Source of the DNA: Giardia intestinalis
Taxonomy: Eukaryota
Assembly (NCBI GenBank): GCA_000002435.2
Contig: CM018789.1
Reading direction: 5' to 3' (one strand)
Length of the DNA stretch: 64,000 bases
Of the stretch, positions 41,704 through 59,069 are shown in pieces; position 1 is the stretch's first letter; every line of letters begins with the position of its first letter. The notes below the pieces were generated by a model. That model was not told where the DNA came from and ran no database searches. It saw only the letters and a list, made by a program, of their open reading frames with translations. The position numbers and the translations under genes are program-made.

Positions 41704-44700
41704 TCACTGCATCAGTTCAAACGATTGAATGTATGTCAGGAAGGTCTGGGCCTTCATCGCCAGGGCTGTTCGTGCGTGCCCGTCTGTGCCATTCTCAGTA
41801 GCCGGCCGTTCATAAGACAGAACAATCATCAGTTTTCTAATATTATATCTGGTGATGAGCTGCCGTGGGTGAGACGAATGCAGATAGATATGCTCAAATA
41901 TATCCATACACCCCTTCCGCGTCGTGTTCTGCTTGCTTGCGCGGAGATTGACGAATAGTCTCTGGAGGAACTGCTGATCTGACGACAAAAATTGTGGAAT
42001 GCTTTCGTGCTGCTTAATAAACCGCGTCAAGTCGCCTATCACCTCGGATGCGATCTTTTCAGTACTCAGCAGAACAGAGAGCTTGGCCAGATTAGCGGGG
42101 GAGACGATTACGTTGATAATTCTCCGCCAGGACTGTTGTATGTGGCTATATTTAGAGCAATCAAAGAACCAGCTAAGTAGACAGAGCACTTTGTTGGGAT
42201 ATGTTGCAGCAAGATTGAATATTTTTGACAGCCATTGCTCCCTTCCATCTTCAACGGTAGAGAACTCCTTGAAGATCTTTTCCAAAAGACTCTGGTAGGG
42301 GACCATCAACCGGTTTTGCCGTTTTTGTTGATTTGGGAAGCGCTTTGTCGGCCGCAGCGCAGACGTTCTAAGTATTATCTCCATCGCCAGCTCAACTACG
42401 TTACCAGAGAACTCTGTTATGGGCGACGGGGAGTAGGATGACGATGCCTCCGGTGCTTGAGATGTCATCTTCTTGGATGGCTTCCGTGGAGAAGATCGTT
42501 GAGAATGTGGTCTGCTAGCATCTCCTTCGATGACTGGCGTCAGGCTGCCGTAGATAATCCTATAGCACACAGGTATGAGGCCCTTATTGAGTGCAATGGC
42601 GTGTATCTCCGGAAACTGGATGATGCTGTGGCAGAGATAGGTGGCCGAGTCCAAGATGTCGTCTGTTCGGTAGTTCTGAATGTTTATTAACAAATCTACC
42701 AGTATGTCAATTGTCTGTGATGTAAGAGATTGCACAAAATCCGGTGTGAGAACAAATTTTCGCAGTGAAGCAAAGAACGTGGTAACAATCGTGTGTATGC
42801 GATAGGGCAAAGAGGTAGAAGAGTAGTTGCTTAGGGGAGAGGCTGTGTAAGAAGCTGGTAGACAACTCATCAAGACGCAGCTTATAAAGTTGATGTAGGT
42901 TTTCAAAACGTCCTTGGAGAAGATGATGTGTGCATAGTCCAGGTCTACCAGCTTAGTGTATACCTCGATACCCTGCTCTAGAGCCTGGATCCTCTTCTCA
43001 TTCATTGCTAATATGCTCAAATAGTACTTTAATTTGGTTTCGTTATAGTCCTTGCCCTTATCAGCAAAGAATATTGACCGGAGTCTATCGCTAGTCTCCC
43101 CAGAAAGGTCCAAGTCAAAGGGATTGTTCCAGTCGACTCGCTGGCCAATGACCTGGACTTCACAGGTGGGGTAATTGTAGGGCGAACCCTCTAAGATTGG
43201 GGGCAGGAGCTTCCAGAACAGAAGAATGTTAAGCGATTTTGCAATGTACTCGTATGCATTTTCAGTTATTAATATCGTTGCATAGGATTGTGTTGAGATT
43301 GTCGGTATTTCCATTATGGACTTTGCTGGCTGAATGGCAGACGTGGAGCCTACCCGGCTATTTTTGGTGGATACGGCCTTTTCAGATGGGAGGACAGAGT
43401 CTAGTTGATACAGTTTTACCACGTGATCAAGGACCTCTCTCTCATCGGTCAAGAACTTGGAGTTGAGAATACCTACCTTCCGTGCTTTAGATGTCTTGTC
43501 TTTAAACACCAGCTTATAAATTATGCCAATGACTTGAATAACAAAGCGTGCATCCTTGGTAGACAGGAGGCAGTCGCACAGCTGCAAAATCTGAGAGTGT
43601 AGGATGAGACAGTAATCTATGGAAATGAACTCTGCAGATGCAAAGTTTCCGTCAATAAACACCTGCAGAAGATCAGAGACCACGGTCCGCGTCTCACCCT
43701 GGAGCACATTGATCAGTGCATCTTTGTCACAGGGGTACGAAACTAGTTTCTGTGACGAGTCTGCCGCAGAGGGGTCTATTTGGAAGCCTACGCATGAATC
43801 TTCACCATAGATTGACGAATTCGTATGACCCGTATCTTTATCAACAATAGGCACAACGGTAGGGATATTAGTGGGCACAATGCTCGGGGTTTCGCGACCG
43901 GTTAGCATAGATGGGTAGTGAGACAAGCCAGCATGGTCATTTTCTAGTGTCTTTGAGGTACATGAAAATCTGGGAACGTTGGGGAGCTGCAGAAGGTGAG
44001 CGTAAGATCTCGCCGGTACTGTGGTACTGTGGATTATTTCATAATAGTCTTTAGTCCCCTTCCTAGCTGAGTATTTTGGGCGTTCCTTGTCCTTTTCACT
44101 TACTCTATCTGCCCCAACGTTGATTGGCAGAGATGAGTACGTAAAGCTACGAAATGCTAGAAGCGTCCGATCAGCTGTTGCTTTAAATTCTCCCAGGAAA
44201 CTCTTCAGTGCATACTTGTCGTCAGTGTTTTGATTCTTCAGCGTGGTGTATGTTAGAAATAAATGCGTCGTGAGATGGCAGTCAAGAGATCTGATTGTAT
44301 CGTGCTGTATTTGGGATTTTTGATTGGTGGTTGTACCTGAATCGAATTGGCCGTTAACACGACCGGATCTGGCTGTGCTGATAGTATCATTCTGTAGCGT
44401 GGTCTGGGCGTCTTGGCTGTGCCGCATGAACTTGAAGCCCCGTGATTCGGAATTAACTGCCTCACATGTTTGACTTTTTATCGCTCTAAAAAAATCAGAG
44501 ATTGATTCTACAAAAGTAATAGAATTGGAGATTTTAAAATCTATTAACCTTTTCATCAACGGAGGAAGGCCCAGGGCGGTTAGGTTCATTATCAACCGCG
44601 GTGAATACTGACACAGCACATACAAAATCTTGCACAACTCTATACAGTACTCATACATGTACAGGGTCAATGCCGCATTCCAAAAGATGGCTCTGCGGGT

Positions 44701-47217
44701 TGCAAGCGACATAGCAGCTTTAGGATCTCCTCTTTTACTTTTGTTGTTTCTATCCCGCAGATCTGCATTTAAATAGTATTTCTCATCAAATTCCTTTCCG
44801 AAAAACTCCTGAGCCGCACCCAGAAACGGAACATTAGTGGATTTGGAGGGGAGTGCTTCATCGAGCAAGGAGTGGTTGGATTCCGGAAACGATCCCAGCT
44901 CACCAAATTTCTTCAAGACCAGAGGCTCTAGCGACGATGAGTGCAAGTTACTCTGAAGAGTATTTGTGAGAGAATGATACTGGGGGCGAACCATAGATGT
45001 TTTTTGCATGCCAGCTGCATAGGAACTTGGCATGTGTCTGCCCCTTGATGATGGTTTTGCCGGAGAATGCAAGCTTGCTGTGTTGTGCACTTTGAGCGTA
45101 CTAAAGGACATTTGGATCGAGTCATAGCCACTAGCAGTTGAGGATTGGTTAGAGTCTGCGTCAGGATTGCTGGAGTACAAGGCCTTGGTTCTATGTGTCG
45201 ACTCCTGGTCTCTTGGAGTAGTAAGCGGTAACCCCTGATAGTTCTGCTGTCTCTCGCGAAGAGCCTTGAGCTTGTTCTTTAGAACGCTGGTCTCTATTGG
45301 GTGAGTGTTATACAAGTTATTTAGATTAACGCAAACCTCATTGAAGTGATCCATGGACGAAGCCAATGAAGAGTTCTCTATATTGATTAGAATGTTATCA
45401 ATGTGTTGTATCACAGACAAGAAGCCACGCTTTTCCATTATGTTTGAGATTAGGACCCCCGCTGTCTCCGTTGGCTGCAGACTCTCTAGGTCCAATTCAT
45501 ATGGCAAGAAGGGTGAGGGATCCTCTTCCCCGTTGGTAGGGTTTTGGTGCCCTCCGCTACCATCAGCAATAGCCTCTTGCTGTTTCTGGGGAAACATATG
45601 ACCTCTAAAGATGCAGGAGAGCTTCTTACGCTTCTGCGAAGTTGAGATTGCTTTTAGTAACTTGTGTGCGTCTATTATGGAATATGATGCAAAGACGTTC
45701 TTCTCTAGTATGCGGAGATGCTGCTTTATTGCTTTCTTGTTAATCTTGGGAGTCATAAGGATATTGCTCATAAAGGTGTGTCGCATAACTCCGTCAATAA
45801 TTACAGAGTCTTGGCCCGGGGGTTCCTTGCAAGAAACGTCTAAGATATCATTGCTCATAGTCCCGATCAGGGAATTGTATTTGTTGTCGTCGCTGAGGTC
45901 CTGGATGTCTGGAAAGAGAGTTAGGTCATCACTGTCAGAGTTGATGCTTAAAATGGAATCTGTCTGGATATTTATGAGCGGATCTGCTCCGAAAAGAGAT
46001 TCTGAGCGCTCAAAGTCCCGTTCCAGACGCCTTGTCCTCACAGTTTCAAGTCGTGTGGCCAAGGTGTCATGTGTAAGGCTGGAAAACTGTGGAGCCGAGG
46101 AGCCTGCGTTGTGTCTGACAGAGGACTTTGAGAGGGGCTTTTCCGAGACCTTTGGGCTTGTTGATTTTGGATAGCTTGGATTCTGTAATGTGTGCATGTC
46201 TAAAGTGCTGGAATTGGGCTCCTTGGTGGGCGGGAGTGCTTGAACATCTTTCCCTGTGCTCGATTCTCTGCTTGATCTTCTGCTCGACTCCTTGGGTGAT
46301 CCTGGTAGCGAAAAGCCTTTCGGTGGTGGGAGCATGTTATTGGTCAATGTAAGCTTTGCTGACTCTCTTGGGCCAACAAGCTGCTTTTGCCTCATAAGGC
46401 TGTTTGCATTTTTGATGAGCCACGGGTGATTCAGAAGCTCAGCACAACTGTGCCGCTCATGCGGATCAATTTTGAAGCAGCACGAAAGGAAATCTGCGCA
46501 CTCGGGGGAGATGTTGGGGGGAAGCGGCATCTCCGTGAGCGTTGCAATGTTATACATTGCTGCAAACCCCGTAAGGTTGTGAAAGGGCGGCTTCTTAGTT
46601 AGTAGCTCAATCATCGTGGCACCTAAGGACCAGACATCAGACTTAGTGGATACACCCTCTTCGTTGATCACCTCTGGGGCAAGCCAATAAGGAGACCCCT
46701 CGACGACGGTCGGATCCACATCTTGAAGCCGTTGAGAGAGGCCAAAGTCAGTCAGTTTGCAAAGTCCAGAAGAGGTCATCAAAATGTTTGCCGCCTTAAT
46801 ATCTTTGTGGATTATGCCCTGCTCGTGTAGATATTTAAGTCCCAACAATATTTGGTAAATATAGCATGCTACCACATTTTCTCCCAAATCATCATATTGC
46901 TTAATTAACGTCTGCAAAGAGCCAAAATCTACTAATTCTAGAATAATATAAAGGTAATTCTGCTCTAAGAAGCACCCCCGGTACTTCACTATGTTGGAGT
47001 GGTTCAGTTTAGACAAAAGGTTTATCTCAGACATCACTTCCTTGATAAATCCCTGGTCAACAGCTTTCTTTTTGCCCTTAGGCTCCAACTGCTTGAGTGC
47101 CACAAAACCACCTGTTACTTCATCTGCTGCTTTCCACACCTTCGCGAAGGCCCCTTTTCCTATGAGGCAATGTAAAGTGTAGCGGCCACGTATGGTGAGG
47201 GGATTGTCTGTCTGCAT
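41704..47217 (-). CDS. STE-group Ser/Thr kinase, Cdc15/Cdc7(S. pombe)/MAP3K-epsilon-like, with a roughly 1500-aa C-terminal non-catalytic region
   Basis: The N-terminal kinase domain is [48 protein letters not shown]. It closely parallels MAP3K-epsilon/Cdc15 kinases. A long, probably helical-repeat tail follows. ATG at 47217 after ttattagcataaaaaaa. Confidence 0.85.
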
Positions 47218-48748: not shown

Positions 48749-50317
48749 TCAACTAAACCCCAAAGCAGATCTTAGAAACTCAAGCTGCGTGGCGCGCAAG
48801 CTGTCATTGATCGACCACGATGTGTACAGATCTGTGCAGTGCGACCCATTCGGTATGTACGATGTGGTCGAGCCATTATGGAGATGATGCCCTGTGGACC
48901 AGGTCTCCCCTTCACGATAACTGAGCTCGCTCCACGGGTCCACGTGACCATTCGTAATGTAGATGTTAGACATCTTGATGTTTCTGGCACCATAGTACAC
49001 GTTAGTGAACCGGACAGCCTTGTTGACGAGGTCATCGCTCTGGGAACGTGTGAAGCTAGGGGCACCCGGCGGTGTAGCGCCCGGGGCAAAGTACGCTTTG
49101 TAGCACATCTCGAGGAAGTAGTCTAGGGTGATCATGGTGCCAAAGCCCGCAGCAGGGCTCGACGTCTGATAATAACCAAACTCCACACACGTCTGCCACA
49201 GCCACGATCGATCTACTGCAAACTCTGAATCTATGCTGGTATCCTGTATGGCCTTAATATACCCATCGAATGAAAGGTCAATCTCTTCCATTGAACCCCC
49301 GTAGTAGTCTAGTAGCCATGAAGCATATGCTTTAAGGTCCTGGTAGCTCTCTCCAGTGTCGTAGCTATCATAGGATGCCTCAATAGCCTTGCACATCTGC
49401 TTGATATCACCATCCTTCGTGGTGTTGTAATACCCATCGTGCTTAGCGTACTGCACAACACCAGAGGGAGCGCCCATAGCAGACATGAAGCTGGCCTTAT
49501 CATACCCTGTGCTATTGTAAATGCTTTCCTCTTTGAGCTTAAAGATTGTAGCCAAGGTCGCCTTGTCGTGACTTAGCAGGTATTCCGCATCCTTGTGGGC
49601 GGCAGAAATGATGTCCATGCAGCGGTCCCCTCCATACTTCCGTACCTGAGAATCAATGTGCTGAAGGTATTCTGGATAGTCTGTCTGTGCCAGATATGGG
49701 CCGCTGGAAGAGATTGCAGCGTCAATAATGAACGGAAACTGAATGCGGGCCCACGCAGCCAGATTGCCCGAATAGGATCCGCCGACTGCCACAATCTTTG
49801 TACCCTCTGGAAGATTATACTCTCGCTTCAAATATGCAAGAAACGTAGCTATATCGGCCAGTGCTTGGTCTGAACGGAGGAGGCTCAGGTTAGCTGAATT
49901 CGTGCTTGGAAACGAAGCTCCGTAGAAGCGATGCTCAAGTGCAACCTTGAGGCCGTTCATGTTCTTTGCAAAGTAGTCAATGCTGAAGTAGTCTCCGACA
50001 TCTCTTGGAGTAGCCGGTCCCTCCCCGCCTATCATGAGAAAGACGGGCCCCCCTGCCTTGTAGTAGGTGTCATTGTAGTAGTACCTTTGCGACCACTTCT
50101 TGGTATTCGTAGAGTCAAAGTGATCCACGTGCTGTTCACGGAACCAGAGTTCCCCGGGGTAGTGTTGGACCCTCACTGGTTTTGGTGCCTTTAAAGGGAC
50201 AGGAGAGCCATCTGGAGACAGGTCGGTGTCCAGGCTGCGGGTGAAGATAGAGGAGACGCGGGAGAGGGGCTTCTTTGAAATGCTTCCGAGAAGGAAGATA
50301 AAGAGAAGCGAAATCAT
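48749..50317 (-). CDS. Serine carboxypeptidase, peptidase family S28 (PRCP/lysosomal Pro-X carboxypeptidase-like), with a signal peptide
   Basis: N-terminal signal MISLLFIFLLGSIS. S28 hallmarks are present: WSQRYYYNDTYY...GGPVFLMIGGEGP and the nucleophile motif GGSYSG. About 520 aa. Confidence 0.85.
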   Translation of the reverse strand: MISLLFIFLLGSISKKPLSRVSSIFTRSLDTDLSPDGSPVPLKAPKPVRVQHYPGELWFREQHVDHFDSTNTKKWSQRYYYNDTYYKAGGPVFLMIGGEGPATPRDVGDYFSIDYFAKNMNGLKVALEHRFYGASFPSTNSANLSLLRSDQALADIATFLAYLKREYNLPEGTKIVAVGGSYSGNLAAWARIQFPFIIDAAISSSGPYLAQTDYPEYLQHIDSQVRKYGGDRCMDIISAAHKDAEYLLSHDKATLATIFKLKEESIYNSTGYDKASFMSAMGAPSGVVQYAKHDGYYNTTKDGDIKQMCKAIEASYDSYDTGESYQDLKAYASWLLDYYGGSMEEIDLSFDGYIKAIQDTSIDSEFAVDRSWLWQTCVEFGYYQTSSPAAGFGTMITLDYFLEMCYKAYFAPGATPPGAPSFTRSQSDDLVNKAVRFTNVYYGARNIKMSNIYITNGHVDPWSELSYREGETWSTGHHLHNGSTTSYIPNGSHCTDLYTSWSINDSLRATQLEFLRSALGFS

Positions 50318-50383
50318 TTATCGCTGAATTTTATTTTTTGAAAGGAGAAGGAAGAAGAATTAAGCAGAAGACAGCAGATTTCC

Positions 50384-52855
50384 ATGTCTGGCCCAGGTCG
50401 CCGTGGTGTAAAGAACCGCTGCAATGCACTATTCATTAACATGGCTACCATTTGGAATACCTATGGGTTTGACGTAATGATGTATCATCTTCTATGTAAC
50501 GAAATTCTTGTCTACACCTTCTTTCTGATGAGCATCTACTCTGCTATCTATACCATCTATGGTATAATTGATTTCTCCTCCTCTCAGGCCCTTCTAACCT
50601 CAAACCTCTTCACGGTTATGCAAGGATATGGATATGATTGGATTTCCTTTGCCGTACAGATGTCTGCCATACTTGCTTTTGTTCTCTATACCAAGTTCCT
50701 GCTCATTTATAGACGCGACTTACTGAGAATCCAGGAATTGACACATCTAGACGTGAGTTTATATACACTTTTCCTTTACAACGTTAGGGCTAAGACGCGC
50801 GATGAAGACATAATTGCGCGCATCGACAAGGACTTAACATATCTAAAAGGTACATTTGCTGTTCCCAAAGAGGTACAGCGACCAGTAACCAAGGAGCAAG
50901 ACCCTAGGGGCGATAGAGGCGAAGCGTTCCATGTCTCAATGCATGAGAAGGTCATCAAGTGCGGGCAGAAGAGGTGGGGAAGAAAGGGTGATTGCGAAAG
51001 AGAGCATCACATAGATCACATCTTCTCATTGGAGAGGATTCGCGACTTAAATGTCTATCATGCTAAGAGACGTCTTGCAGAACTTGAGACGCAATACTAT
51101 AATCAGATTAAGGCAAATCCCCAGAAGCTTGTACCAAAGCGTGGTCGTGGAGCATCCTGCCTAAAGGCGCTTGGGATTATCAAGTGCATGCAAAAATATG
51201 GGCTTCTGCGGGATGCTATTTGGTATAATGAGGCTATTAAATGGGAGAAAATGAAAGTACAAAAGATGGAGGCCATGAGTTCAGAGACAAGCAAAGGAAT
51301 GGCTATTGTCATTTTCAAGTTGGCCTCAGCAAAAACGGCTTTCTACAATCATCGGCAGTCTTACTTGGGAGACAGATATGTCGCGGTTAAAGGAAACATC
51401 ATACGTGTCACCAAAGCACCATCACCCAGCGATGTGAATTGGGATAATGTGCACAGAGGGAGAGCTATTTTCCTTGTGATGTTCCTCTGTTGTCTTCTCC
51501 TTTCATTACTGCTTACATCCGTTGTTTATTTGATCACCGCAGTGATCAGAGCTTATCAGCGAATCATTGCGTCTCAGACAACCTCTGTCATTACGTCGCT
51601 CGCGCTAAGTGGAAGTATGTACCTTGTTATATTACTTTCCGATTATCTGGGGAGGGTCTTGATGACCAAGATCGTCCAACTAGAGCGCCATCACACAACC
51701 TCTGCGTATGAAACATCGTATCTGCTCCGTTACTTTATCTATATCTTTATCAATAGACTGACACCTCTATATTCCCGAACAATCTTGGAATATTTAACCA
51801 ATCTATTCACCAATCTATTCAAGCCATTGAACCTGAACAATTATTATTTTTTTAAAATAATAGACTTCACGAAAGATTGGCGGTGGGGAAAAGATACTCC
51901 GGGGCGCGACATATTAATGTATGTGATACTAGCAACTGTCCTTGATAACACACTTGATGTTATCCTGCACTATTTGCAACCCGCTGCATGGGGTGAATGC
52001 TGTCATAAACGTCACACAAGTAGCCCTGAACATCTCATAGAACGTGGTGATAGCGTTGTTGAGGAGAACACAGAAACAATAAGCTTGGTGACTACCAAGG
52101 CAAAGTACTACTGTGGCTGTCACTGTGAGTTCTGCAGAGTGCGGTCACATGACGAAGAAGCTTTGCGGCTAAAGCTAGAGTACAGCATGCTCTATTGCAG
52201 ACTGGCATCTATATTCACTTACAGTCTATCATTCGGATATACTCAGCCCGTAATACTCCCTATCGCATGTGTGTATTTTCTTTTGCAGAACATTGTGGGC
52301 AAATGCAAGCTCGTCTACTTGTCTAAACCGGGAAGGAAATTCTCAACCTCTCTGTCATCATATTTTTGTAACGTATTGCTGACCTTTAGCTATCTATTTG
52401 CAACAGCTACATTAGCTCAAGGGTATCTGTCCAGCGCGGTTGTGCCAGCTGGAATAGCTCTCTCTATTGGCTTCCCAATCGTCATTCTCTTCTCAGCTAT
52501 CTTCAATACTGCAACTATATGTGCTCTTATTAAAATCTGCCGCTGCAGAAGGAAAATTGAAAAGGAGACGTCCCTTCGCAAGAGCATCATAAGCCATAGT
52601 TATGGAATGCTCAGCAAAGAGATAGAAGAGGAAAGGCGGTTCAACAAGATGCCCATCTATGATCCTGACCTGCATGGAGAATATATATTTCAGCCAACAA
52701 CGGGCTATTCTGAAAAAGAATGTGCAAAGCTAAAGACTCTCTTATCTAGTGCAATCTCAGGAAAGGCAGATGACTCCAGCGCCACGCCTGAGGTAACAGA
52801 GGCGATGGCCGTATCGAAGTTAAGAGCCTCTCCTACATCGTCACAGATAGACTAG
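50384..52855 (+). CDS. OSCA/TMEM63/CSC1-like calcium-permeable mechano/osmosensitive cation channel (RSN1_TM, PHM7_cyt, RSN1_7TM architecture)
   Basis: N-terminal transmembrane helices come first. A cytosolic domain follows, with the OSCA signature AIVIFKLASAKTAFYNHRQ...APSPSDVNWDNV (compare AFVTFKSR...APEPRDVYWDNL). It is followed by a 7-TM pore region (LVMFLCCLLLSLLL..., GIALSIGFPIVILF). ATG at 50384. Confidence 0.8.
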   Translation: MSGPGRRGVKNRCNALFINMATIWNTYGFDVMMYHLLCNEILVYTFFLMSIYSAIYTIYGIIDFSSSQALLTSNLFTVMQGYGYDWISFAVQMSAILAFVLYTKFLLIYRRDLLRIQELTHLDVSLYTLFLYNVRAKTRDEDIIARIDKDLTYLKGTFAVPKEVQRPVTKEQDPRGDRGEAFHVSMHEKVIKCGQKRWGRKGDCEREHHIDHIFSLERIRDLNVYHAKRRLAELETQYYNQIKANPQKLVPKRGRGASCLKALGIIKCMQKYGLLRDAIWYNEAIKWEKMKVQKMEAMSSETSKGMAIVIFKLASAKTAFYNHRQSYLGDRYVAVKGNIIRVTKAPSPSDVNWDNVHRGRAIFLVMFLCCLLLSLLLTSVVYLITAVIRAYQRIIASQTTSVITSLALSGSMYLVILLSDYLGRVLMTKIVQLERHHTTSAYETSYLLRYFIYIFINRLTPLYSRTILEYLTNLFTNLFKPLNLNNYYFFKIIDFTKDWRWGKDTPGRDILMYVILATVLDNTLDVILHYLQPAAWGECCHKRHTSSPEHLIERGDSVVEENTETISLVTTKAKYYCGCHCEFCRVRSHDEEALRLKLEYSMLYCRLASIFTYSLSFGYTQPVILPIACVYFLLQNIVGKCKLVYLSKPGRKFSTSLSSYFCNVLLTFSYLFATATLAQGYLSSAVVPAGIALSIGFPIVILFSAIFNTATICALIKICRCRRKIEKETSLRKSIISHSYGMLSKEIEEERRFNKMPIYDPDLHGEYIFQPTTGYSEKECAKLKTLLSSAISGKADDSSATPEVTEAMAVSKLRASPTSSQID

Positions 52856-52948: not shown

Positions 52949-53758
52949 ATGATTAAAATGAACTCGCAAGATGACCAGAGTGAAGAGCTCTTTATGCCAG
53001 AGGCGGAGTTCTCTGATGTTCAGCTTAACCTAGAGTTCGCTGACTCGTCAGAAGACTTTAAACCGGAGATTGAGACGCTAGCTGGTGCATTTTGGGCACA
53101 GACGCCACACAGTGAGCTTGCCTTTGAATTGGCCAAAATAGTTTCAGCCCAGCCTGAAATTGGTACAGTTGCTTGTGGCGACGACTCGGCTGTCCTAGGA
53201 TACCATAGTATAATTAACTTAGGACAGCACATGCATATCTCAGCCATAGAGGCCCTCTTTGACTTGCTATTAAATGCCTTAGAAGAATACAAAGACACGT
53301 TGCCGCCTGCTAAGCTTTTCTGGCAACGCCTTAAGGCTGGGACTGTTTGCCTAGGGTTTCTGACTACAGGCCGCTACACAAATTTGCCTATGAGTGCAAT
53401 TGCAGCCTTCTATCAGGTTGTCAAGGACGACATAGAGTGGGCCTCTAGTGCAAAATACAATAGCAGCACTCCGTCACATCTCTTTAAGTTCACTCACATC
53501 CTTTACATCACCAAGGCCGTGCTGAAGGATACTGAGCCTTCCATGAACCAAACAACTGGGTGCACAACTAATCCATTAAACCGCCTCAAGAAACGAAGCC
53601 TGGCTCGGCCAGAGGACACAACCATTATTGAATGTTCTCTATTTACTCTTCTTGTACCAGCTTCCTTGGGCTCATTTACCTGCTGGGTGATCTCTGTTCT
53701 AGATTTGGCCGGGTACCTTCGTGTCTCGAAAGCATTAGCTGATGAGGACTTCGATTGA
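52949..53758 (+). CDS. Hypothetical protein (269 aa)
   Basis: ATG at 52949 in AT-rich context (atgtttcaaaATGATTAAAATG). Open 0.8 kb. No recognised domain. Confidence 0.5.
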   Translation: MIKMNSQDDQSEELFMPEAEFSDVQLNLEFADSSEDFKPEIETLAGAFWAQTPHSELAFELAKIVSAQPEIGTVACGDDSAVLGYHSIINLGQHMHISAIEALFDLLLNALEEYKDTLPPAKLFWQRLKAGTVCLGFLTTGRYTNLPMSAIAAFYQVVKDDIEWASSAKYNSSTPSHLFKFTHILYITKAVLKDTEPSMNQTTGCTTNPLNRLKKRSLARPEDTTIIECSLFTLLVPASLGSFTCWVISVLDLAGYLRVSKALADEDFD

Positions 53759-53823: not shown

Positions 53824-56800
53824 TCAGCGTGGTCCCTTCAGTAGTTCCCGAATGCGGTTATCGTTAGCCCAGTACAGCGCGTTCTTCTTGTCTGGCTGGG
53901 TGATGTCCAGCTCCTCATCTAATAGTAAACGAACACATGCTTCATGCCCATTTGTTGCAGCAGCCATGAGCGCAGTGAAGCCTTCACCAAGCTCATAAGC
54001 TGCGGTAGTCGTCATTCTGACCTCCATATCCTTCAACAATTTGACACAGTCAGTGTACCCATTCCAAGCGGCAAACATGAGCGCCGTGCGGCCCTCCTTA
54101 TTCTGCATACGTCCCTCTACGGGAAGAAGCATGCGGCAGGCCTCCAAATTCCCCTTACTTGCGGCAAGCATTAACGAAGTTGTTCCATTGTTCCAGCCGC
54201 GGCCAGTCATCTGCATTTTCGCCTCATAAGGTATGAGCAAACGCATTATTCCGAGATACCCCCGTTCTGCAGCAATCATGAGACCCGTGCGGCCATTTCT
54301 ATCTGTGAGCTTAGCCTGCTTGGCCAGTAATGAATATACCTGAACAATGTCATTAAGTTCAGCCGCTTGCATGAGTTCTGTGCAACTCTTTCCGTCGTGC
54401 GGAAGAATATCATCTGTGCTGGGTGTCTCCCGACGAGCTAGTATTTCCGCTGTCTGTAAATTGCCAGCCTCCAAGGCGAAAGCCAGCGCTGTCTGCCCAT
54501 CTTTTGTCATTATTCCAGCTTCAGCGTTCAAAAGGCAATAAACTGCATCAGTGTAGTCGAGCTTTGCAGCTATCATTAGGGCTGTTTCCCCATTACTATT
54601 TTTCTTCCCAGCCTCCACAGGAGCAAGAAGTTTGACGAAGTCCAACTTTCGCCGAGTTACGGCTATCATAAGTGCCGTGTAAAGTGGATAGGGAGGAATG
54701 TCTCTAGTCTGCATGCCCGCCTCTCTATTTATTAAGCGCCGCGCAATATCAAGTCTATCATGTTCTACTGAATACATCAGTGCGGTCCTGCCGTTAATAT
54801 CCATCAATCCAGCTGAGAGATCTATCAGCAACAAGGCTGCATCGGTAAACCCAACTTGGATGGCATACATCAACGGCGAAATACCTTGTTGATCTTGCCT
54901 TCTTGAAAGGCTATCCATAGCTTGTTGCACAGCCGTGATATCCTTATTAGTTATGGCACGGAAAAGAACGTTGTCATCGTGCTGTCTTTGCATGGTTGTG
55001 CGTACAATATTTGTATTAATAGTTGGGGACACTGCTTCGGAGACAGTCACTGTTTCCACCATAGGGCTTATGGTAGTGTTGACGACGCTGACTCGCCGAT
55101 CTATAGGTTTGGGTACATTTGCCAGAGCCGTGGACGCTGAGGAGGGACGATAAATTACATCCTGCAAAAGACCATGTGAAGCATTTGCATTAGGCTCCAA
55201 GAGCGGCTGTTCCTTATGTGACTGGTGGGCATTAGGGGCATGGCCTCCCGGTAAGTAATCATCGTTTCCGGTATGTGCTTGCTGAATCGTAGCAAATCCA
55301 GGAGTGAACAGAGACGGGGTTGCTGTTGTCACAGAGTCCTCAATTGGTGCTGATGTTATGCTGCCGCGCCTATTCTCAATAGCGTGCTGCAACGCGGAGA
55401 GGATGTCGTCTTCGGAGATACGTGCTGGCGTTTCGTGCATCCGTCGAGGATCCAGTGAGCTCATTTCATGCATATCGGGGATACCTCGCAATGCAGAATT
55501 GGGGCCGGCTGCAGACGCAGAGCCTGGGCGTGATGATCCCTGCTGCTTGGCATGTCCAGAACTCTGAAAAGTGTATGTACCTGAACCTGCAGGATAAGAC
55601 TGTCCCGAAACAAGCCTTATGGCCTCTAACTCAGCGACCCGTTGCTTCAGTTCTGAGCATTCCCTGATGTACTTTTGAATATTTGCCTCTTTGTTTTGAC
55701 GTAGAGGCTGCAAAATACTGATGAAATCTTGCCGTAACTTGTCTTGGGCTATAGCCAGAGCAGAATCTATATCACGTAACTCAAACATGATGCTTTTGCT
55801 CAAAAGGGCAGACAATGCAACTGTGGATCCACCCATCACGGCATAATAAAGAGCCGTGTTACCTGCTGCATCCCTCTCTGTGCATAGTTTTTCCAGAAGT
55901 ATGTTTATGGATTGCACGCTTCCACTGTGTGCTGCAAGCATCAAAGCAGTGCAACCAGCCGGCCATGTGGAAAGTTGTGTTGTGGAGAAGTAGGCCTCAT
56001 AGTCTAATAGTAGCTTGACGATGAGATAGTGTCCAGAGATCACAGCATGCATGAGAGCTGTAAATCCATCAGATTGCTGAATCCCTGCTTCATGCTCTGC
56101 TAAGACAAAAGCTATGTCAATAAAGCCATTGCATGCAGCATGCATGAGTGCTGTCTTGTTATCTCTATCTCTTACCCTCGCCATTATACCTACATGAGCC
56201 TTTACATATGCGACATTATTTTGCTGGACGGCAGAGAACCAGGCATCGCCGAGATCTGTCTGGGTTCCAATAGAGTTACTGGCCATAATTTGAGATATAT
56301 TGAGCCTGCTACTAGAGAGACTCGGCGGAAGGGCATAGGCTGGGCCCTTTTGAGAGTCTTTGGCATCTGGAAATTCAAGGCCGTGCTGCTGCTTGAGCTG
56401 TGCCAGTTCAGTAGTCAGAGCTTCTATTATTCCTGCTTGAGAGGTGATTTCGAACTTCTGTAGCATGTAATCGTTTCGAAGCTTTTCAAGCTCTTTGTTA
56501 TCAGCATTCTCAGAAAAATTTAATTGCGATGATTCCATAATACAAACATTAGAGTACAGTTTAGATACAAAGTCTGTTACTTTCTCTTTTTTAGTTTCAG
56601 GTAAATCTAAAAGAATTTCATGAAACGTACAATCCATATCTTTGTCGGGAAAATGAAGTGTGCGGAGCGGTGTCTTAAGCTTTTCTGCAAGGCGGGAAGC
56701 TGGAGACATTCGTATGGATGTAATTGCATCTAGCGCCGACAGAATAGTCTTATCTTCATACACCTTGCTGCCATCTAGGTTCAGCATTGGAGAGGTAAGC

Positions 56801-58365
56801 CTGTTATGACTCAGCGGAGGGGTAGCAGCAATTTTACTTTTAACCAACGTGTGCCCTTCTAATGCAGTTATATATTTTTGAACATCCTTCCAACTTTCTA
56901 TTGCATCTAAAGGAGAAATACCGTTAGGCATATTCGATAAGTCTTCTGCAGTGGTTACCATGGCCAGCTTTCCTGGAGTGTTTGACGATTGATGATTAAT
57001 TAGGTTGACCATTGGTGCCATCGCACTAATAAGCTGCTTGGTGGTCTTGACTGCAGGACTATTAACGACCTCAAGCACGCTTTGATATGTCCGCGCAGAT
57101 GGCGGGGTATTCGTTCCATTTGCTACTGTTCCTATATGTGACAACGCTAAGCGCAGATTTCGCTCAATTTCGCTAAAGGAGCTAAAAGAACGGTCAGTCT
57201 GCACAACGGGAGCAGGAGCAGACGATGCACCGGCGAATGGCTGCATGTTCAATGTTGGCAGAGTCGACTCCGTATTGATAAATGTGTGCAAAGTAGAAGG
57301 GTTAGAAGACGTGATCCCCGTGGGGATATGCTGTGATAACGTGCTCACATCCGAAAGAGTGCTAAAATCGTAAGGCACATAAGGTTTGTACGTGGATGAT
57401 GTATTGGTGCTTATCTTTGGGGCTGTAAAGTTGGCTAACGGTGAAAGAGATCCATGAGTAGCTGTGGTAGAGTCGATCACGTTGGAGTCTGGTAACACAG
57501 AGAAGCCGTCAACTGACGTCTTTGTATCAGCCTGCTTCTGTTGCTGTGCACCAAAGTGGTAACTTCGTTGCATAGGTTGCTGAGTCTGTTTCCCGGGGGT
57601 GAGTGACTCTACTCCCATTGACTTCGATAGGGAGGGTCTTAAATTGTCAATGAATCCATCAGGACGAGGGATCTTAGACGTGACATTCATAGAGGACGCC
57701 TGTGAAGCGTCGCTATCTGCTGTAAGGATATTATTTGCCGAGGCTGCTGGCTTGAAGCCATCTTTGACATCTGTCTTGAGTGATTTAACATTTATTTGGG
57801 AACTTGCAAAGGAATGATGATGCTCAAGAGCCTCCTTCAACGCTGTCTCAATTGCACCAAGGTCCTTAGCCCGTGCTAAAGAAAGAGAGAGCTCAAGCAC
57901 CTCCTCTTGGAAGACCATTCTTTGTAGCAAGAGGCGAACACAAACAAGGCTCTCCGCTAGAACCGCATAGTCCAGAGCACAGAGATCGTGACTGTCCCGC
58001 CTGTACGACACATATTTTAGGAGCACAGAAAGAGACTCCACAGAGACCGATTTGGCGGCAATCATAAGGCAGTCTCGCCCTCGGTCACAATAGATATTGG
58101 CCTCGTACGGAGCTAAAAGTTCGCAAACGTCAGGGTAATCCCTCGAGGCAGCAATCATTAACGCTGTCCTGCCATCTCTTGTCATTCGCCCATGTTCGTG
58201 GGCAGCCAGGATGCGAACAATGCCTATTTTGTTCAAACGGGCAGCCAAAATAAGAGCTGTATCTCCAGCATCATTCACGGTGAGCTTATACTGTGGCAGA
58301 AGCTGTTGAATAAGGCTCGTGTCACCTGCCTCCACGGCACCAAACCAGTCTGCGCTTCCTGGCAT
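53824..58365 (-). CDS. Giant ankyrin-repeat protein (Giardia 'Protein 21.1'-like): N-terminal ankyrin repeats, Ser/Thr-rich low-complexity middle, coiled coil, C-terminal ankyrin array
   Basis: Numerous 33-aa ankyrin repeats with the diplomonad-typical pattern (G.TALM.AA..G...V..LL..EAG..). Coiled coil at ELEKLRNDYMLQKFEITSQAGIIEALTTELAQLKQQ. The track ORF reaches an ATG at 58398, which overlaps the upstream gene's stop (ATGA). An alternative ATG at 58365 (MPGSADWFG) follows atttcattaaaattctg. I annotated from 58365. Confidence 0.85.
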   Translation of the reverse strand: MPGSADWFGAVEAGDTSLIQQLLPQYKLTVNDAGDTALILAARLNKIGIVRILAAHEHGRMTRDGRTALMIAASRDYPDVCELLAPYEANIYCDRGRDCLMIAAKSVSVESLSVLLKYVSYRRDSHDLCALDYAVLAESLVCVRLLLQRMVFQEEVLELSLSLARAKDLGAIETALKEALEHHHSFASSQINVKSLKTDVKDGFKPAASANNILTADSDASQASSMNVTSKIPRPDGFIDNLRPSLSKSMGVESLTPGKQTQQPMQRSYHFGAQQQKQADTKTSVDGFSVLPDSNVIDSTTATHGSLSPLANFTAPKISTNTSSTYKPYVPYDFSTLSDVSTLSQHIPTGITSSNPSTLHTFINTESTLPTLNMQPFAGASSAPAPVVQTDRSFSSFSEIERNLRLALSHIGTVANGTNTPPSARTYQSVLEVVNSPAVKTTKQLISAMAPMVNLINHQSSNTPGKLAMVTTAEDLSNMPNGISPLDAIESWKDVQKYITALEGHTLVKSKIAATPPLSHNRLTSPMLNLDGSKVYEDKTILSALDAITSIRMSPASRLAEKLKTPLRTLHFPDKDMDCTFHEILLDLPETKKEKVTDFVSKLYSNVCIMESSQLNFSENADNKELEKLRNDYMLQKFEITSQAGIIEALTTELAQLKQQHGLEFPDAKDSQKGPAYALPPSLSSSRLNISQIMASNSIGTQTDLGDAWFSAVQQNNVAYVKAHVGIMARVRDRDNKTALMHAACNGFIDIAFVLAEHEAGIQQSDGFTALMHAVISGHYLIVKLLLDYEAYFSTTQLSTWPAGCTALMLAAHSGSVQSINILLEKLCTERDAAGNTALYYAVMGGSTVALSALLSKSIMFELRDIDSALAIAQDKLRQDFISILQPLRQNKEANIQKYIRECSELKQRVAELEAIRLVSGQSYPAGSGTYTFQSSGHAKQQGSSRPGSASAAGPNSALRGIPDMHEMSSLDPRRMHETPARISEDDILSALQHAIENRRGSITSAPIEDSVTTATPSLFTPGFATIQQAHTGNDDYLPGGHAPNAHQSHKEQPLLEPNANASHGLLQDVIYRPSSASTALANVPKPIDRRVSVVNTTISPMVETVTVSEAVSPTINTNIVRTTMQRQHDDNVLFRAITNKDITAVQQAMDSLSRRQDQQGISPLMYAIQVGFTDAALLLIDLSAGLMDINGRTALMYSVEHDRLDIARRLINREAGMQTRDIPPYPLYTALMIAVTRRKLDFVKLLAPVEAGKKNSNGETALMIAAKLDYTDAVYCLLNAEAGIMTKDGQTALAFALEAGNLQTAEILARRETPSTDDILPHDGKSCTELMQAAELNDIVQVYSLLAKQAKLTDRNGRTGLMIAAERGYLGIMRLLIPYEAKMQMTGRGWNNGTTSLMLAASKGNLEACRMLLPVEGRMQNKEGRTALMFAAWNGYTDCVKLLKDMEVRMTTTAAYELGEGFTALMAAATNGHEACVRLLLDEELDITQPDKKNALYWANDNRIRELLKGPR

Positions 58366-58394
58366 CAGAATTTTAATGAAATATTTACTTAACT

Positions 58395-59069
58395 TCATGT
58401 CCAGGAAAGCGCCTCTAGAACATCATTCTTCGACTCGCCCAACGTAACATCATGATTGTGCCCAGGGTAGATTCTGAAATCGTCAGACAGTTCTTTGTAA
58501 ATTCGTTTCACAGATGCTTTTAATTGCTTTGAAGATCCACCGGGGAAATCTGTTCGTCCGACGGAGTTAGCAAATATGGTATCACCCGTGAAAACGACCT
58601 TGGCCTTATTACAGTACAACAGAGAGGAGCCCGGCGTATGGCCTGGGGTGTGCATAATCCTGAAGATGTTATCGTTGCCTAGATCAAAGGTCGACTCCTC
58701 ACTGAATGTTTCATCCGGTTCAGCTGGAAAGTCAGCTGGAACGGACTCCCCAAAGAGAGGAGCAAACATTCTGTTTGCCTTCCAATGGGTAACATCATCT
58801 GCGTGGGAATATATCTTAGGGGAGCCAAATCTGTCACCCTCCTTTTTCAACTCATTCACCACATAACCAGTCCCAAAGACGTGATCGAAGTGCGTGTGAG
58901 TAAGGAGGATGAAGAGGACCTTGAGTTTTTGCTTCTTCACATAGTCTAAAACATCGGGACAGCTCGCACCAGGATCGACAATCAGTGCGTTGCAGCTTTT
59001 CGGATCAAACGCAACATAGCAGTTTGCTTGCAGGGGGCCCGTAGGGAATGTAGCAACGGTCAGAGACAT
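58395..59069 (-). CDS. Metallo-beta-lactamase-fold hydrolase (bacterial YcbL/GloB-like, about 224 aa)
   Basis: Motif THTHFDH (HxHxDH), then HTPGHTPGS and the GDTIF...GRTDFPGG block typical of small bacterial-type MBL hydrolases. The track start is GTG at 59072; the ATG is at 59069. Confidence 0.85.
   Translation of the reverse strand: MSLTVATFPTGPLQANCYVAFDPKSCNALIVDPGASCPDVLDYVKKQKLKVLFILLTHTHFDHVFGTGYVVNELKKEGDRFGSPKIYSHADDVTHWKANRMFAPLFGESVPADFPAEPDETFSEESTFDLGNDNIFRIMHTPGHTPGSSLLYCNKAKVVFTGDTIFANSVGRTDFPGGSSKQLKASVKRIYKELSDDFRIYPGHNHDVTLGESKNDVLEALSWT

What the first reader, a model, noticed from the sequence alone, without database searches (positions are those of the whole stretch)
50384..52855. 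OSCA/TMEM63-family mechanosensitive cation channel in Giardia
The protein shows the diagnostic cytosolic PHM7 block (..FKLASAKTAFYN...APSPSDVNWDNV) flanked by the N-terminal TM bundle and the 7-TM pore domain of OSCA/TMEM63/CSC1 channels. A hyperosmolality- or mechano-gated channel is a plausible sensor for the osmotic and bile/pH transitions that trigger excystation and encystation. It would be a tractable target.
Basis: partly seen in the sequence, partly recalled or inferred. Interest (0 to 1): 0.5.

Follow-up and report, generated by a model that had tools for sequence, protein, structure and literature searches.

The report
Divergent OSCA/TMEM63-like protein of Giardia
This Giardia gene does encode a very divergent relative of the OSCA/TMEM63 force-sensing membrane channels, but it was already catalogued as such in 2018 and nobody has tested what it does.

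Summary
The ORF (50384..52855, +, 823 aa) and both quoted motifs are real. It is Giardia intestinalis XP_001709178.1 / UniProt A8B7A1.

It is not new. The first 75 residues and the 823-aa length match TCDB entry 1.A.17.7.5, in the 'CSC-L2' family of Medrano-Soto et al. 2018.

Differences from canonical OSCA/TMEM63:
- No TM0, so 10 helices rather than 11.
- Two Giardia-specific inserts.
- An Asp conserved across the clade (D420) at the TM4 site where charge substitutions turn OSCA1.2 and TMEM63A into scramblases.

The mechanosensitive cation-channel function, and any role in encystation or excystation, are inference only.

The parts
50384..52855 (+). Complete ORF, 823 aa plus TAG stop. Giardia intestinalis XP_001709178.1 / A8B7A1; matches TCDB 1.A.17.7.5.
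   Evidence: An in-frame stop lies 15 codons upstream and only 66 bp separate this ATG from the divergent neighbour's ATG.
50384..50485 (+). Short cytosolic N-terminus (residues 1-34) with the pre-TM1 helix and the G-x-D-x-x-x-Y motif (YGFDVMMY). There is no TM0.
   Evidence: The profile alignment to TMEM63B starts here, at TMEM63B residue 137. No hydrophobic peak precedes the motif in any N-terminally complete clade member.
50468..50713 (+). TM1 (about residues 29-64), an extracellular loop, and TM2 (about residues 86-110).
   Evidence: Hydropathy, AlphaFold helices H29-64 and H86-120, alignment to TMEM63B TM1-TM2.
50714..51454 (+). Cytosolic IL2 domain (residues 111-357), containing the Pfam PHM7_cyt match (210-355). 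It has an RRM-like beta sheet and two long helices.
   Evidence: 30.9 bits. Strands 128-135, 213-219, 304-311, 330-335 and 338-344 in the model. Weak RRM matches.
50861..51013 (+). Insert in IL2 (residues 160-210), variable between Giardia orthologues and of low model confidence.
   Evidence: Poorly conserved among Giardia orthologues; pLDDT below 50 for residues 166-208; gapped against TMEM63B.
51119..51214 (+). Candidate membrane 'hook' between the two long IL2 helices (residues 246-277), ending in the clade-conserved Q270, G273, R276, D277.
   Evidence: The position corresponds to the Cys-rich TMEM63B stretch CGHLCCC. The hook's role in OSCA1.2 is from PMC6235563.
51416..51451 (+). APSPSDVNWDNV, the conserved end of PHM7_cyt that leads into TM3.
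   Evidence: Aligns with TMEM63B YAPDPQNIYWEHL. P346 and P348 are nearly invariant and N355 invariant in the clade.
51455..51811 (+). TM3, TM4 and TM5 (residues 358-476), including the superfamily motif ERHHTTSAYETS (434-445).
   Evidence: E434 is invariant in the clade. The motif aligns with TMEM63B FEAHWTRSGEN.
51641..51655 (+). TM4 signature D420-x-x-x-R424, aligned to TMEM63B S488 and P492 and so to OSCA1.2 L438.
   Evidence: Asp in 13 of 13 core-clade members and Arg in 10 of 13. Alignments. Equivalences and mutant phenotypes from PMC11753361 and PMC11534332.
51899..52015 (+). TM6a/TM6b (residues 506-544), with D525 aligned to TMEM63B D584 and a break at residue 532, next to P533.
   Evidence: D or E at this position in 10 of 13 clade members.
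51989..52147 (+). Cys- and His-rich insert between TM6b and TM7 (residues 536-588), Giardia-specific.
   Evidence: Variable among Giardia orthologues; pLDDT below 50 for residues 534-585; largely gapped in TMEM63B and, at its start, absent from most clade relatives.
52148..52543 (+). TM7 to TM10 (residues 589-720). TM8 (624-646) has no acidic residue.
   Evidence: This was the best single-sequence match to TMEM63B (residues 596-695).
52544..52852 (+). Cytosolic C-terminal tail (residues 721-823). The block YGMLSKEIEEERRF...HGEY is conserved within Giardia only.

Best explanation
The gene encodes a highly divergent, single-exon member of the OSCA/TMEM63 branch of the TMEM16/OSCA/TMC superfamily. 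It belongs to the small fornicate-specific clade that TCDB calls CSC-L2 (entry 1.A.17.7.5).

Shown here: a 10-helix membrane domain (TM1-TM10, no TM0), with the OSCA-type cytosolic PHM7/IL2 domain inserted between TM2 and TM3; homology to TMEM63 and OSCA along nearly the full length; a predicted fold closest to OSCA/TMEM63; and no TMEM16-type Ca2+ site.

Inferred: it works as OSCA/TMEM63 proteins do. A pore or groove lined by TM3-TM7 opens when membrane tension or lipid packing changes, with coupling through the membrane-anchored IL2 helices and TM6b and no dependence on Ca2+. It then passes cations and possibly phospholipids. The conserved TM6 Asp (D525) would line the pathway. The clade-specific TM4 Asp (D420) would make the TM4/TM6 interface polar, which favours easy opening or lipid scrambling.
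Confidence: 0.65

Rival explanations
1. It is mainly a lipid scramblase that responds to membrane structure, as reported for TMEM63B, and not a signalling cation channel. The native charged TM4 residue D420, with R424, would keep the TM4/TM6 groove hydrophilic so that lipids cross when packing or cholesterol content changes.
For: D420 is Asp in 13 of 13 core-clade members and aligns with TMEM63B S488, TMEM63A S475 and OSCA1.2 L438. L438K and S475K give constitutive scramblases, and the acidic I521E does the same in TMEM16F (PMC11534332). TMEM63B scrambles lipids when cholesterol is extracted with MbCD (PMC11753361).
Against: The residue equivalence rests on alignment at about 17% identity. R424, one helical turn away, may simply neutralise D420. 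Only Lys was tested in OSCA and TMEM63A. No coordinates were available to show that D420 faces the groove. Scrambling and ion conduction usually coexist in this superfamily, so this rival overlaps the best explanation.
Confidence: 0.22
2. It is a TMEM16/anoctamin-type Ca2+-activated channel or scramblase, as the UniProt name 'Anoctamin transmembrane domain-containing protein' suggests.
Against: The Anoctamin match covers only model positions 101-359 of 460. The clade profile prefers TMEM63B by about 88 bits. The N-terminus is 28 residues, with no TMEM16-type cytosolic domain. The cytosolic domain sits between TM2 and TM3 and matches PHM7_cyt. TM8 has no acidic residue. PMC5868767 also reports that the Ca2+-site residues are not conserved in CSC-L2.
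Confidence: 0.03
3. It is the sensor that converts osmotic, bile or pH transitions into the encystation or excystation programme.
For: A 2013 survey found no Piezo, MscS/MscK, MscL, MscM or DEG/ENaC homologue in Giardia (PMC3681921), so this is the only candidate from a known mechanosensitive-channel family among those surveyed. Encystation is triggered by bile or MbCD cholesterol depletion and changed membrane fluidity (PMC10636121). Cholesterol extraction with MbCD also activates TMEM63B (PMC11753361).
Against: There are no localisation, expression or knock-down data for this gene. The demonstrated pathway uses adenylate cyclase AC2 and cAMP, and no channel has been implicated. The argument is by analogy only.
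Confidence: 0.06
4. It is a non-conducting relic or an organelle-resident structural or tethering protein that keeps the fold but not the transport activity, as some superfamily members do.
For: Extreme divergence; loss of TM0; two large disordered inserts; loss of the K655 and D659 equivalents. The TMEM16 homologue Ist2 appears among the fold matches.
Against: The pore-region helices and motifs are the most conserved parts across Fornicata: E434, E443, N457, D420, D525, Y604 and P622. That pattern is what selection on the permeation pathway would produce.
Confidence: 0.08

Closest known systems
TCDB family 1.A.17.7, 'CSC-L2' (Medrano-Soto et al. 2018, PLoS One, PMC5868767), entry 1.A.17.7.5
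   Same: Almost certainly this very protein. The entry has the same length (823 aa) and the same first 75 residues, and the trimmed alignment blocks match. It shows the same PHM7_cyt plus Anoctamin Pfam pattern, the same taxon (Giardia and Spironucleus), and a placement next to the CSC (OSCA/TMEM63) family.
   Different: Nothing about its identity. Points added here that I did not find in that paper: explicit loss of TM0 (the paper reports only 9 hydrophobic peaks against 10); structure-level confirmation; relatives in Dysnectes, Kipferlia and Hexamita, so the clade is Fornicata-wide; and the TM4 D-x-x-x-R signature.
Animal TMEM63A/B/C (monomeric high-threshold mechanosensitive channels; TMEM63B also reported as a lipid scramblase)
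   Same: Best sequence-profile match (E=4.9e-31, TM1 to TM10). IL2/PHM7 domain between TM2 and TM3. AP-x-P...W-x-N motif, E-x-H-x-T...E motif, TM6 Asp (D584 aligns with D525), TM7 Tyr and TM8 Pro. No Ca2+ site.
   Different: No TM0. About 17% identity. K655 and D659 are not conserved. Asp replaces Ser at the S488 position. There is a 50-residue IL2 insert and a 53-residue Cys-rich insert between TM6b and TM7. The oligomeric state is unknown.
Plant OSCA1.2, OSCA2.3 and OSCA3.1 (dimeric mechanically activated channels)
   Different: No TM0. RSN1_TM and RSN1_7TM Pfam models are not matched. OSCA1.2 has Leu at the position of D420. Dimerisation was not tested.
TMEM16/anoctamin Ca2+-activated channels and scramblases
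   Different: No N-terminal cytosolic domain. The cytosolic domain is inserted between TM2 and TM3. No Ca2+-coordinating acidic residues on TM8. The sequence-profile score is far weaker.

Membership tests
OSCA/TMEM63 (CSC; Pfam RSN1_TM + PHM7_cyt + RSN1_7TM) | PHM7_cyt cytosolic domain inserted between TM2 and TM3 | tested here: met
   PF14703 at 30.9 bits (cut-off 27), residues 210-355, between helices 86-110 and 358-396. All 4 Giardia orthologues match, and 15 of the 22 sequences in alignment A2 do.
OSCA/TMEM63 (CSC; Pfam RSN1_TM + PHM7_cyt + RSN1_7TM) | Match to the RSN1_7TM profile (PF02714) | tested here: not met
   No hit at E<=10 for this protein or any Giardia orthologue. Ten of the 22 sequences in A2 do match, and P0036 (37.4 bits) and P0038 (36 bits) exceed the 28.7-bit cut-off.
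OSCA/TMEM63 (CSC; Pfam RSN1_TM + PHM7_cyt + RSN1_7TM) | N-terminal TM0 (11-helix topology, extracellular N-terminus) and a match to RSN1_TM (PF13967) | tested here: not met
   No RSN1_TM hit. Only two hydrophobic helices precede IL2. The G-x-D-x-x-x-Y motif sits at residues 28-34 with nothing hydrophobic before it, in every N-terminally complete clade member. An in-frame stop lies 15 codons upstream and the intergenic gap is 66 bp.
OSCA/TMEM63 (CSC; Pfam RSN1_TM + PHM7_cyt + RSN1_7TM) | Significant sequence homology from TM1 to TM10 with solved OSCA/TMEM63 proteins, stronger than with TMEM16 or TMC | tested here: met
   Clade profile: TMEM63B E=4.9e-31 (110.6 bits), TMEM63A about 1e-27, TMEM63C 1.9e-25, OSCA2.3 6e-15, OSCA3.1 4e-12, OSCA1.2 5e-11. 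TMEM16F 2.5e-4. No TMC hit.
OSCA/TMEM63 (CSC; Pfam RSN1_TM + PHM7_cyt + RSN1_7TM) | Three-dimensional fold, including the IL2 domain, closest to OSCA/TMEM63 | tested here: met
   [not shown]
OSCA/TMEM63 (CSC; Pfam RSN1_TM + PHM7_cyt + RSN1_7TM) | Conserved pore-facing acidic residue on TM6 (OSCA1.2 E531) | tested here: met
   D525 aligns with TMEM63B D584 within a shared N-x-x-D pattern, and 10 of 13 clade members have D or E there. The link from D584 to E531 is deduced from PMC6235563, not aligned directly.
OSCA/TMEM63 (CSC; Pfam RSN1_TM + PHM7_cyt + RSN1_7TM) | Mechanically or osmotically activated cation current | not testable with these tools
   Needs electrophysiology. No published data were found for any CSC-L2 member.
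TCDB 1.A.17.7 (CSC-L2) | Sequence identity with a listed member; PHM7_cyt plus Anoctamin domain pair; 600-850 aa; at least 9 TMS; Hexamitidae | tested here: met
   The supplement sequence for 1.A.17.7.5 is 823 aa and has the same first 75 residues and the same trimmed blocks as this ORF. Domain pair. Taxon.
TMEM16 / anoctamin | Match to the Pfam Anoctamin model | tested here: met
   43 bits against a cut-off of 28, but only model positions 101-359 of 460. The model belongs to the same Pfam clan as RSN1_7TM (PMC5868767).
TMEM16 / anoctamin | Ca2+-coordinating acidic and polar residues on TM6, TM7 and TM8 | tested here: not met
   TM8 (residues 624-646) contains no Asp or Glu. PMC5868767 reports that these residues are not conserved in CSC-L2.
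TMEM16 / anoctamin | Large N-terminal cytosolic domain before TM1 and only a short TM2-TM3 linker | tested here: not met
   Only about 28 residues precede TM1, and a cytosolic domain of about 245 residues lies between TM2 and TM3.
TMC | TMC Pfam domain and closest fold | tested here: not met
   [not shown]

The most novel reading that the evidence does not exclude
This TM0-less OSCA/TMEM63 homologue carries a native charged residue at the TM4/TM6 gate. It could be Giardia's sensor of the physical state of the membrane: a channel and scramblase that opens when bile or MbCD strips cholesterol, acting upstream of or in parallel with AC2-cAMP signalling to start encystation. It would also be the parasite's only channel from a known mechanosensitive family.
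Probability: 0.06. Interest if true: 0.7.

Novelty: already known. Interest (0 to 1): 0.3.

Why it matters
A 2013 survey found no Piezo, MscS/MscK, MscL, MscM or DEG/ENaC homologue in Giardia (PMC3681921). A 2022 review of protozoan ion channels (PMC9799330) never mentions OSCA, TMEM63 or anoctamins. This already-catalogued gene is therefore an overlooked candidate for mechano- or osmosensing, or for membrane-state sensing, in the parasite.

For channel biologists it is a natural experiment in two ways. It is an OSCA/TMEM63 relative that works without TM0. It also has a conserved Asp exactly where engineered charges convert channels into scramblases.

None of this changes the main verdict. The family assignment is correct but published, and the physiological role is speculation until the protein is localised, knocked down and recorded from.

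Tried and rejected
1. The word-indexed homology search returned only Giardia orthologues, whether run with the single protein, the 4-sequence profile or the 13-sequence profile. The one extra hit was a spurious EGF-repeat protein, P0056. Distant relatives came only from the exhaustive representative search.

2. AlphaFold with the 4 Giardia sequences gave pLDDT 35 and was discarded. The 13-sequence clade alignment gave a usable model.

3. I looked for a hidden TM0, either through an upstream start or an in-frame extension. An in-frame stop and a 66-bp intergenic gap rule it out.

4. NCBIfam gave nothing, as expected for a prokaryote-oriented library.

5. Literature searches for this gene in Giardia found only the 2018 TCDB paper. 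I could not obtain the GiardiaDB gene number, so expression and proteome tables could not be queried.

6. Gene neighbourhood: peptidase S28, BCCIP, an ankyrin-repeat protein, a kinase and an EGF-repeat protein. These are unrelated, and no functional linkage is expected in a eukaryote.

7. A Zn-binding role for the Cys/His-rich insert (residues 536-588) was considered and dropped, because the Cys pattern is not conserved even among Giardia orthologues.

8. I could not align OSCA1.2 residue by residue, because only the top PDB alignments are printed. The E531 and L438 equivalences therefore go through TMEM63B and published statements.
Full report
**Observation.** The window has an 823-codon ATG-to-TAG ORF at exactly 50384..52855 on the + strand. 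The 90% identity cluster that holds the exact window sequence also contains XP_001709178.1 / UniProt A8B7A1 of Giardia intestinalis, named only 'Transmembrane domain-containing protein'. The assemblage B orthologue is named 'Anoctamin transmembrane domain-containing protein'. Four orthologue clusters at 63-100% identity exist. The helices and the core of the cytosolic domain are strongly conserved, while two inserts and the far C-terminus vary. That is the pattern of a functional gene under constraint.

The result is mixed. PHM7_cyt is significant (30.9 bits, cut-off 27, residues 210-355). The membrane half matches Anoctamin (43 bits, cut-off 28, residues 342-638, model positions 101-359 of 460). 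Neither RSN1_7TM nor RSN1_TM appears, even at E<=10. All four orthologues behave the same way. A single-sequence search of the PDB gives only a weak TMEM63B hit (E about 0.01, residues 596-695). Pfam alone therefore cannot decide between OSCA/TMEM63 and TMEM16.

**Resolving the family.**
- *Size of the clade.* An exhaustive HMMER search with the Giardia profile against 1.84 billion cluster representatives found only 22 proteins at E<=1e-3. The named ones come from Spironucleus salmonicida (two paralogues), Hexamita inflata, Dysnectes brevis and Kipferlia bialata, all fornicate metamonads.
- *Pfam matches of the relatives.* Of the 22 sequences scanned, 15 match PHM7_cyt, 18 match Anoctamin and 10 match RSN1_7TM. 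Two exceed the RSN1_7TM cut-off.
- *Clade profile against solved structures.* A 13-sequence profile hits TMEM63B at E=4.9e-31 (110.6 bits) in one alignment covering TMEM63B residues 137-728. TMEM63A follows at about 1e-27, TMEM63C at 1.9e-25 and OSCA2.3, 3.1, 1.2 and 1.1 at 6e-15 to 4e-8. The best TMEM16 entry, TMEM16F, reaches only E=2.5e-4 on a 65-residue stretch, and no TMC chain appears.
- *Predicted structure.* An AlphaFold2 model from the same 13 sequences used no templates, and the alignment contained no OSCA or TMEM63 sequences. It reaches pLDDT 70 and pTM 0.69.
- *Why the alignment is longer with OSCA/TMEM63.* The extra 100 or more aligned residues are most simply explained by the cytosolic IL2 domain being matched. 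The tool prints no per-residue alignment, so this is an inference.
- *Independence of the model.* From my own knowledge, the AlphaFold2 training set stops at April 2018. The earliest OSCA entry listed was released in September 2018. The resemblance is therefore unlikely to be memorised.

Conclusion: the protein belongs on the OSCA/TMEM63 branch. The Anoctamin Pfam hit reflects homology at the superfamily (clan) level.

**It is already catalogued.** Medrano-Soto et al. 2018 (PMC5868767) defined TCDB family 1.A.17.7, 'CSC-L2'. [quoted passage not shown] Their supplement lists 1.A.17.7.5 as an 823-aa protein beginning MSGPGRRGVKNRCNALFINMATIWNTYGFDVMMYHLLCNEILVYTFFLMSIYSAIYTIYGIIDFSSSQALLTSNL. 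That is identical to the start of this ORF, and the trimmed alignment blocks match too. Their trees place 1.A.17.7 beside 1.A.17.5 with 98% support.

**Anatomy and differences from canonical OSCA/TMEM63.**
1. *No TM0.* Only two hydrophobic helices (about residues 29-64 and 86-110) precede the cytosolic domain. The TMEM63B alignment starts at the G-x-D-x-x-x-Y motif just before TM1, which is Giardia YGFDVMMY at residues 27-34. Every N-terminally complete clade member has this motif within its first 40 or so residues, with no hydrophobic segment before it. An in-frame stop lies 15 codons upstream, and only 66 bp separate the ATG from the divergent peptidase gene. The protein is therefore a 10-helix OSCA relative with a cytosolic N-terminus. 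TM0 is what distinguishes the 11-helix OSCA/TMEM63 proteins from TMEM16 (PMC6235563, PMC11753361). Its loss explains the missing RSN1_TM match.
2. *The IL2 domain* has the expected beta strands and two long helices. The intervening segment (residues 246-277) ends in clade-conserved Q270, G273, R276 and D277. It sits where OSCA1.2 has its membrane-embedded 'hook'.
3. *Two low-confidence, poorly conserved inserts*: residues 160-210 in IL2, and a Cys/His-rich stretch at 536-588 between TM6b and TM7.
4. *Pore helix TM6.* D525 aligns with TMEM63B D584, and 10 of 13 clade members have D or E there. [quoted passage not shown] D584 is the only acidic residue in TMEM63B TM6, so I take the three as equivalent. 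This is a deduction, not a direct alignment.
5. *TM8.* TMEM63B K655 and D659, which pair with D584, are Q635 and G639 here.
6. *No TMEM16-type Ca2+ site.* TM8 has no acidic residue, so that site cannot form. This agrees with the 2018 paper.

**A feature worth flagging.** In all 13 core-clade proteins, the residue 14 positions before the invariant Glu of the ERHHT motif is Asp (Giardia D420). The residue four positions after that Asp is Arg in 10 of 13. Both the HMMER and MAFFT alignments place D420 at TMEM63B S488.
- TMEM63B W485 corresponds to the OSCA1.2 lysine K435 (PMC11753361).
- K435 corresponds to the TMEM16F gate residue F518 (PMC11534332).
- By the shared W-x-x-S-A pattern, S488 then equals TMEM63A S475 and OSCA1.2 L438.
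- L438K and S475K convert those channels into constitutively active scramblases with easier gating. In TMEM16F the acidic I521E does the same as I521K.

A native, clade-invariant charge at this TM4/TM6-interface position suggests a polar groove. That would mean a low gating threshold, lipid permeation, or both. This is inference. I had no model coordinates to check side-chain orientation, and R424 may simply neutralise D420.

**Mechanism and confidence.**
- Shown: the family-branch placement, the topology, the domain order and the absence of a Ca2+ site. My confidence in the branch placement is about 0.9.
- Inferred, at about 0.5: a Ca2+-independent pore or groove formed by TM3-TM7, gated by membrane tension or lipid packing through IL2 and TM6b, that passes cations.
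- Lipid scrambling as the main activity is a serious alternative, at about 0.2.
The published pathway for sensing encystation stimuli is bile or MbCD cholesterol depletion, then altered membrane fluidity, then AC2-dependent cAMP (PMC10636121).
- One parallel deserves mention. MbCD cholesterol extraction activates TMEM63B scrambling (PMC11753361), and MbCD is also one of the stimuli that induce encystation. I rate a causal role at about 0.06.

**Context.** A 2013 survey found no Piezo, MscS/MscK, MscL, MscM or DEG/ENaC homologue in Giardia (PMC3681921). A 2022 review of protozoan ion channels contains no mention of OSCA, TMEM63 or anoctamins (PMC9799330). I found no paper that studies this gene in Giardia. 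The gene is thus catalogued by transporter bioinformaticians but apparently unexploited by parasitologists. The flanking genes are unrelated: peptidase S28, BCCIP, an ankyrin-repeat protein, a kinase and an EGF-repeat protein.

**Verdict.** Novelty: already known (TCDB 1.A.17.7.5). Interest is modest at 0.3. It rests on the TM0-less architecture, the native TM4 Asp, and the gene's standing as Giardia's only candidate from a known mechanosensitive-channel family.

Noticed in passing
window 51641-51655 (D420...R424); the same positions in P0002-P0004, P0035-P0042 and P0045: A clade-invariant Asp in TM4, with Arg four residues later in 10 of 13 members. It sits at the position equivalent to OSCA1.2 L438 and TMEM63A S475, where an engineered lysine makes those channels constitutive scramblases. 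The more remote hits P0044, P0049 and P0050 have Asn and Ser instead.
   Followed up: partly
window 50384-50485, and the N-termini of P0035, P0038 and P0040: TM0 is missing from all N-terminally complete members of the fornicate clade, giving a 10-helix OSCA/TMEM63-type protein with a cytosolic N-terminus. The 2018 paper notes only 9 hydrophobic peaks against 10.
   Followed up: yes
P0038 (Dysnectes brevis), P0041 (Kipferlia bialata), P0039 (Hexamita inflata): The CSC-L2 clade extends beyond Hexamitidae to free-living Carpediemonas-like fornicates, and Spironucleus has two paralogues (P0040, P0045). P0035 (701 aa, 30% identical, E=1e-83) comes from an unnamed sequencing-run assembly and could not be assigned to an organism.
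   Followed up: partly
window 51989-52147: A 53-residue Cys/His-rich insert between TM6b and TM7 (WGECCHKRH...CGCHCEFCRVRS). It is predicted disordered, and its Cys pattern is not conserved even among Giardia orthologues.
   Followed up: partly
window 9682-26577 (+): A single 5631-codon ORF. The local G+C rises to 0.53-0.59 at 24-28 kb, against about 0.47 elsewhere. It was not examined.
   Followed up: no
window 48749-50317 (-) and 50318-50383: A divergently transcribed serine carboxypeptidase S28 gene (Pfam E=1.3e-95) starts only 66 bp from the channel gene's ATG. The spacer is A/T-rich (TTTATTTTTTGAAA), so two promoters must share a very short region.
   Followed up: partly
window 52949-53758 (+), 53824-58398 (-), 41704-47217 (-), 39334-41151 (+): Neighbouring genes: a BCCIP-family protein, a 1524-aa ankyrin-repeat protein, an 1837-aa protein with an N-terminal kinase domain, and a 605-aa EGF-repeat cysteine-rich protein. 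None has an evident link to the channel gene.
   Followed up: partly
[not shown]
   Followed up: no
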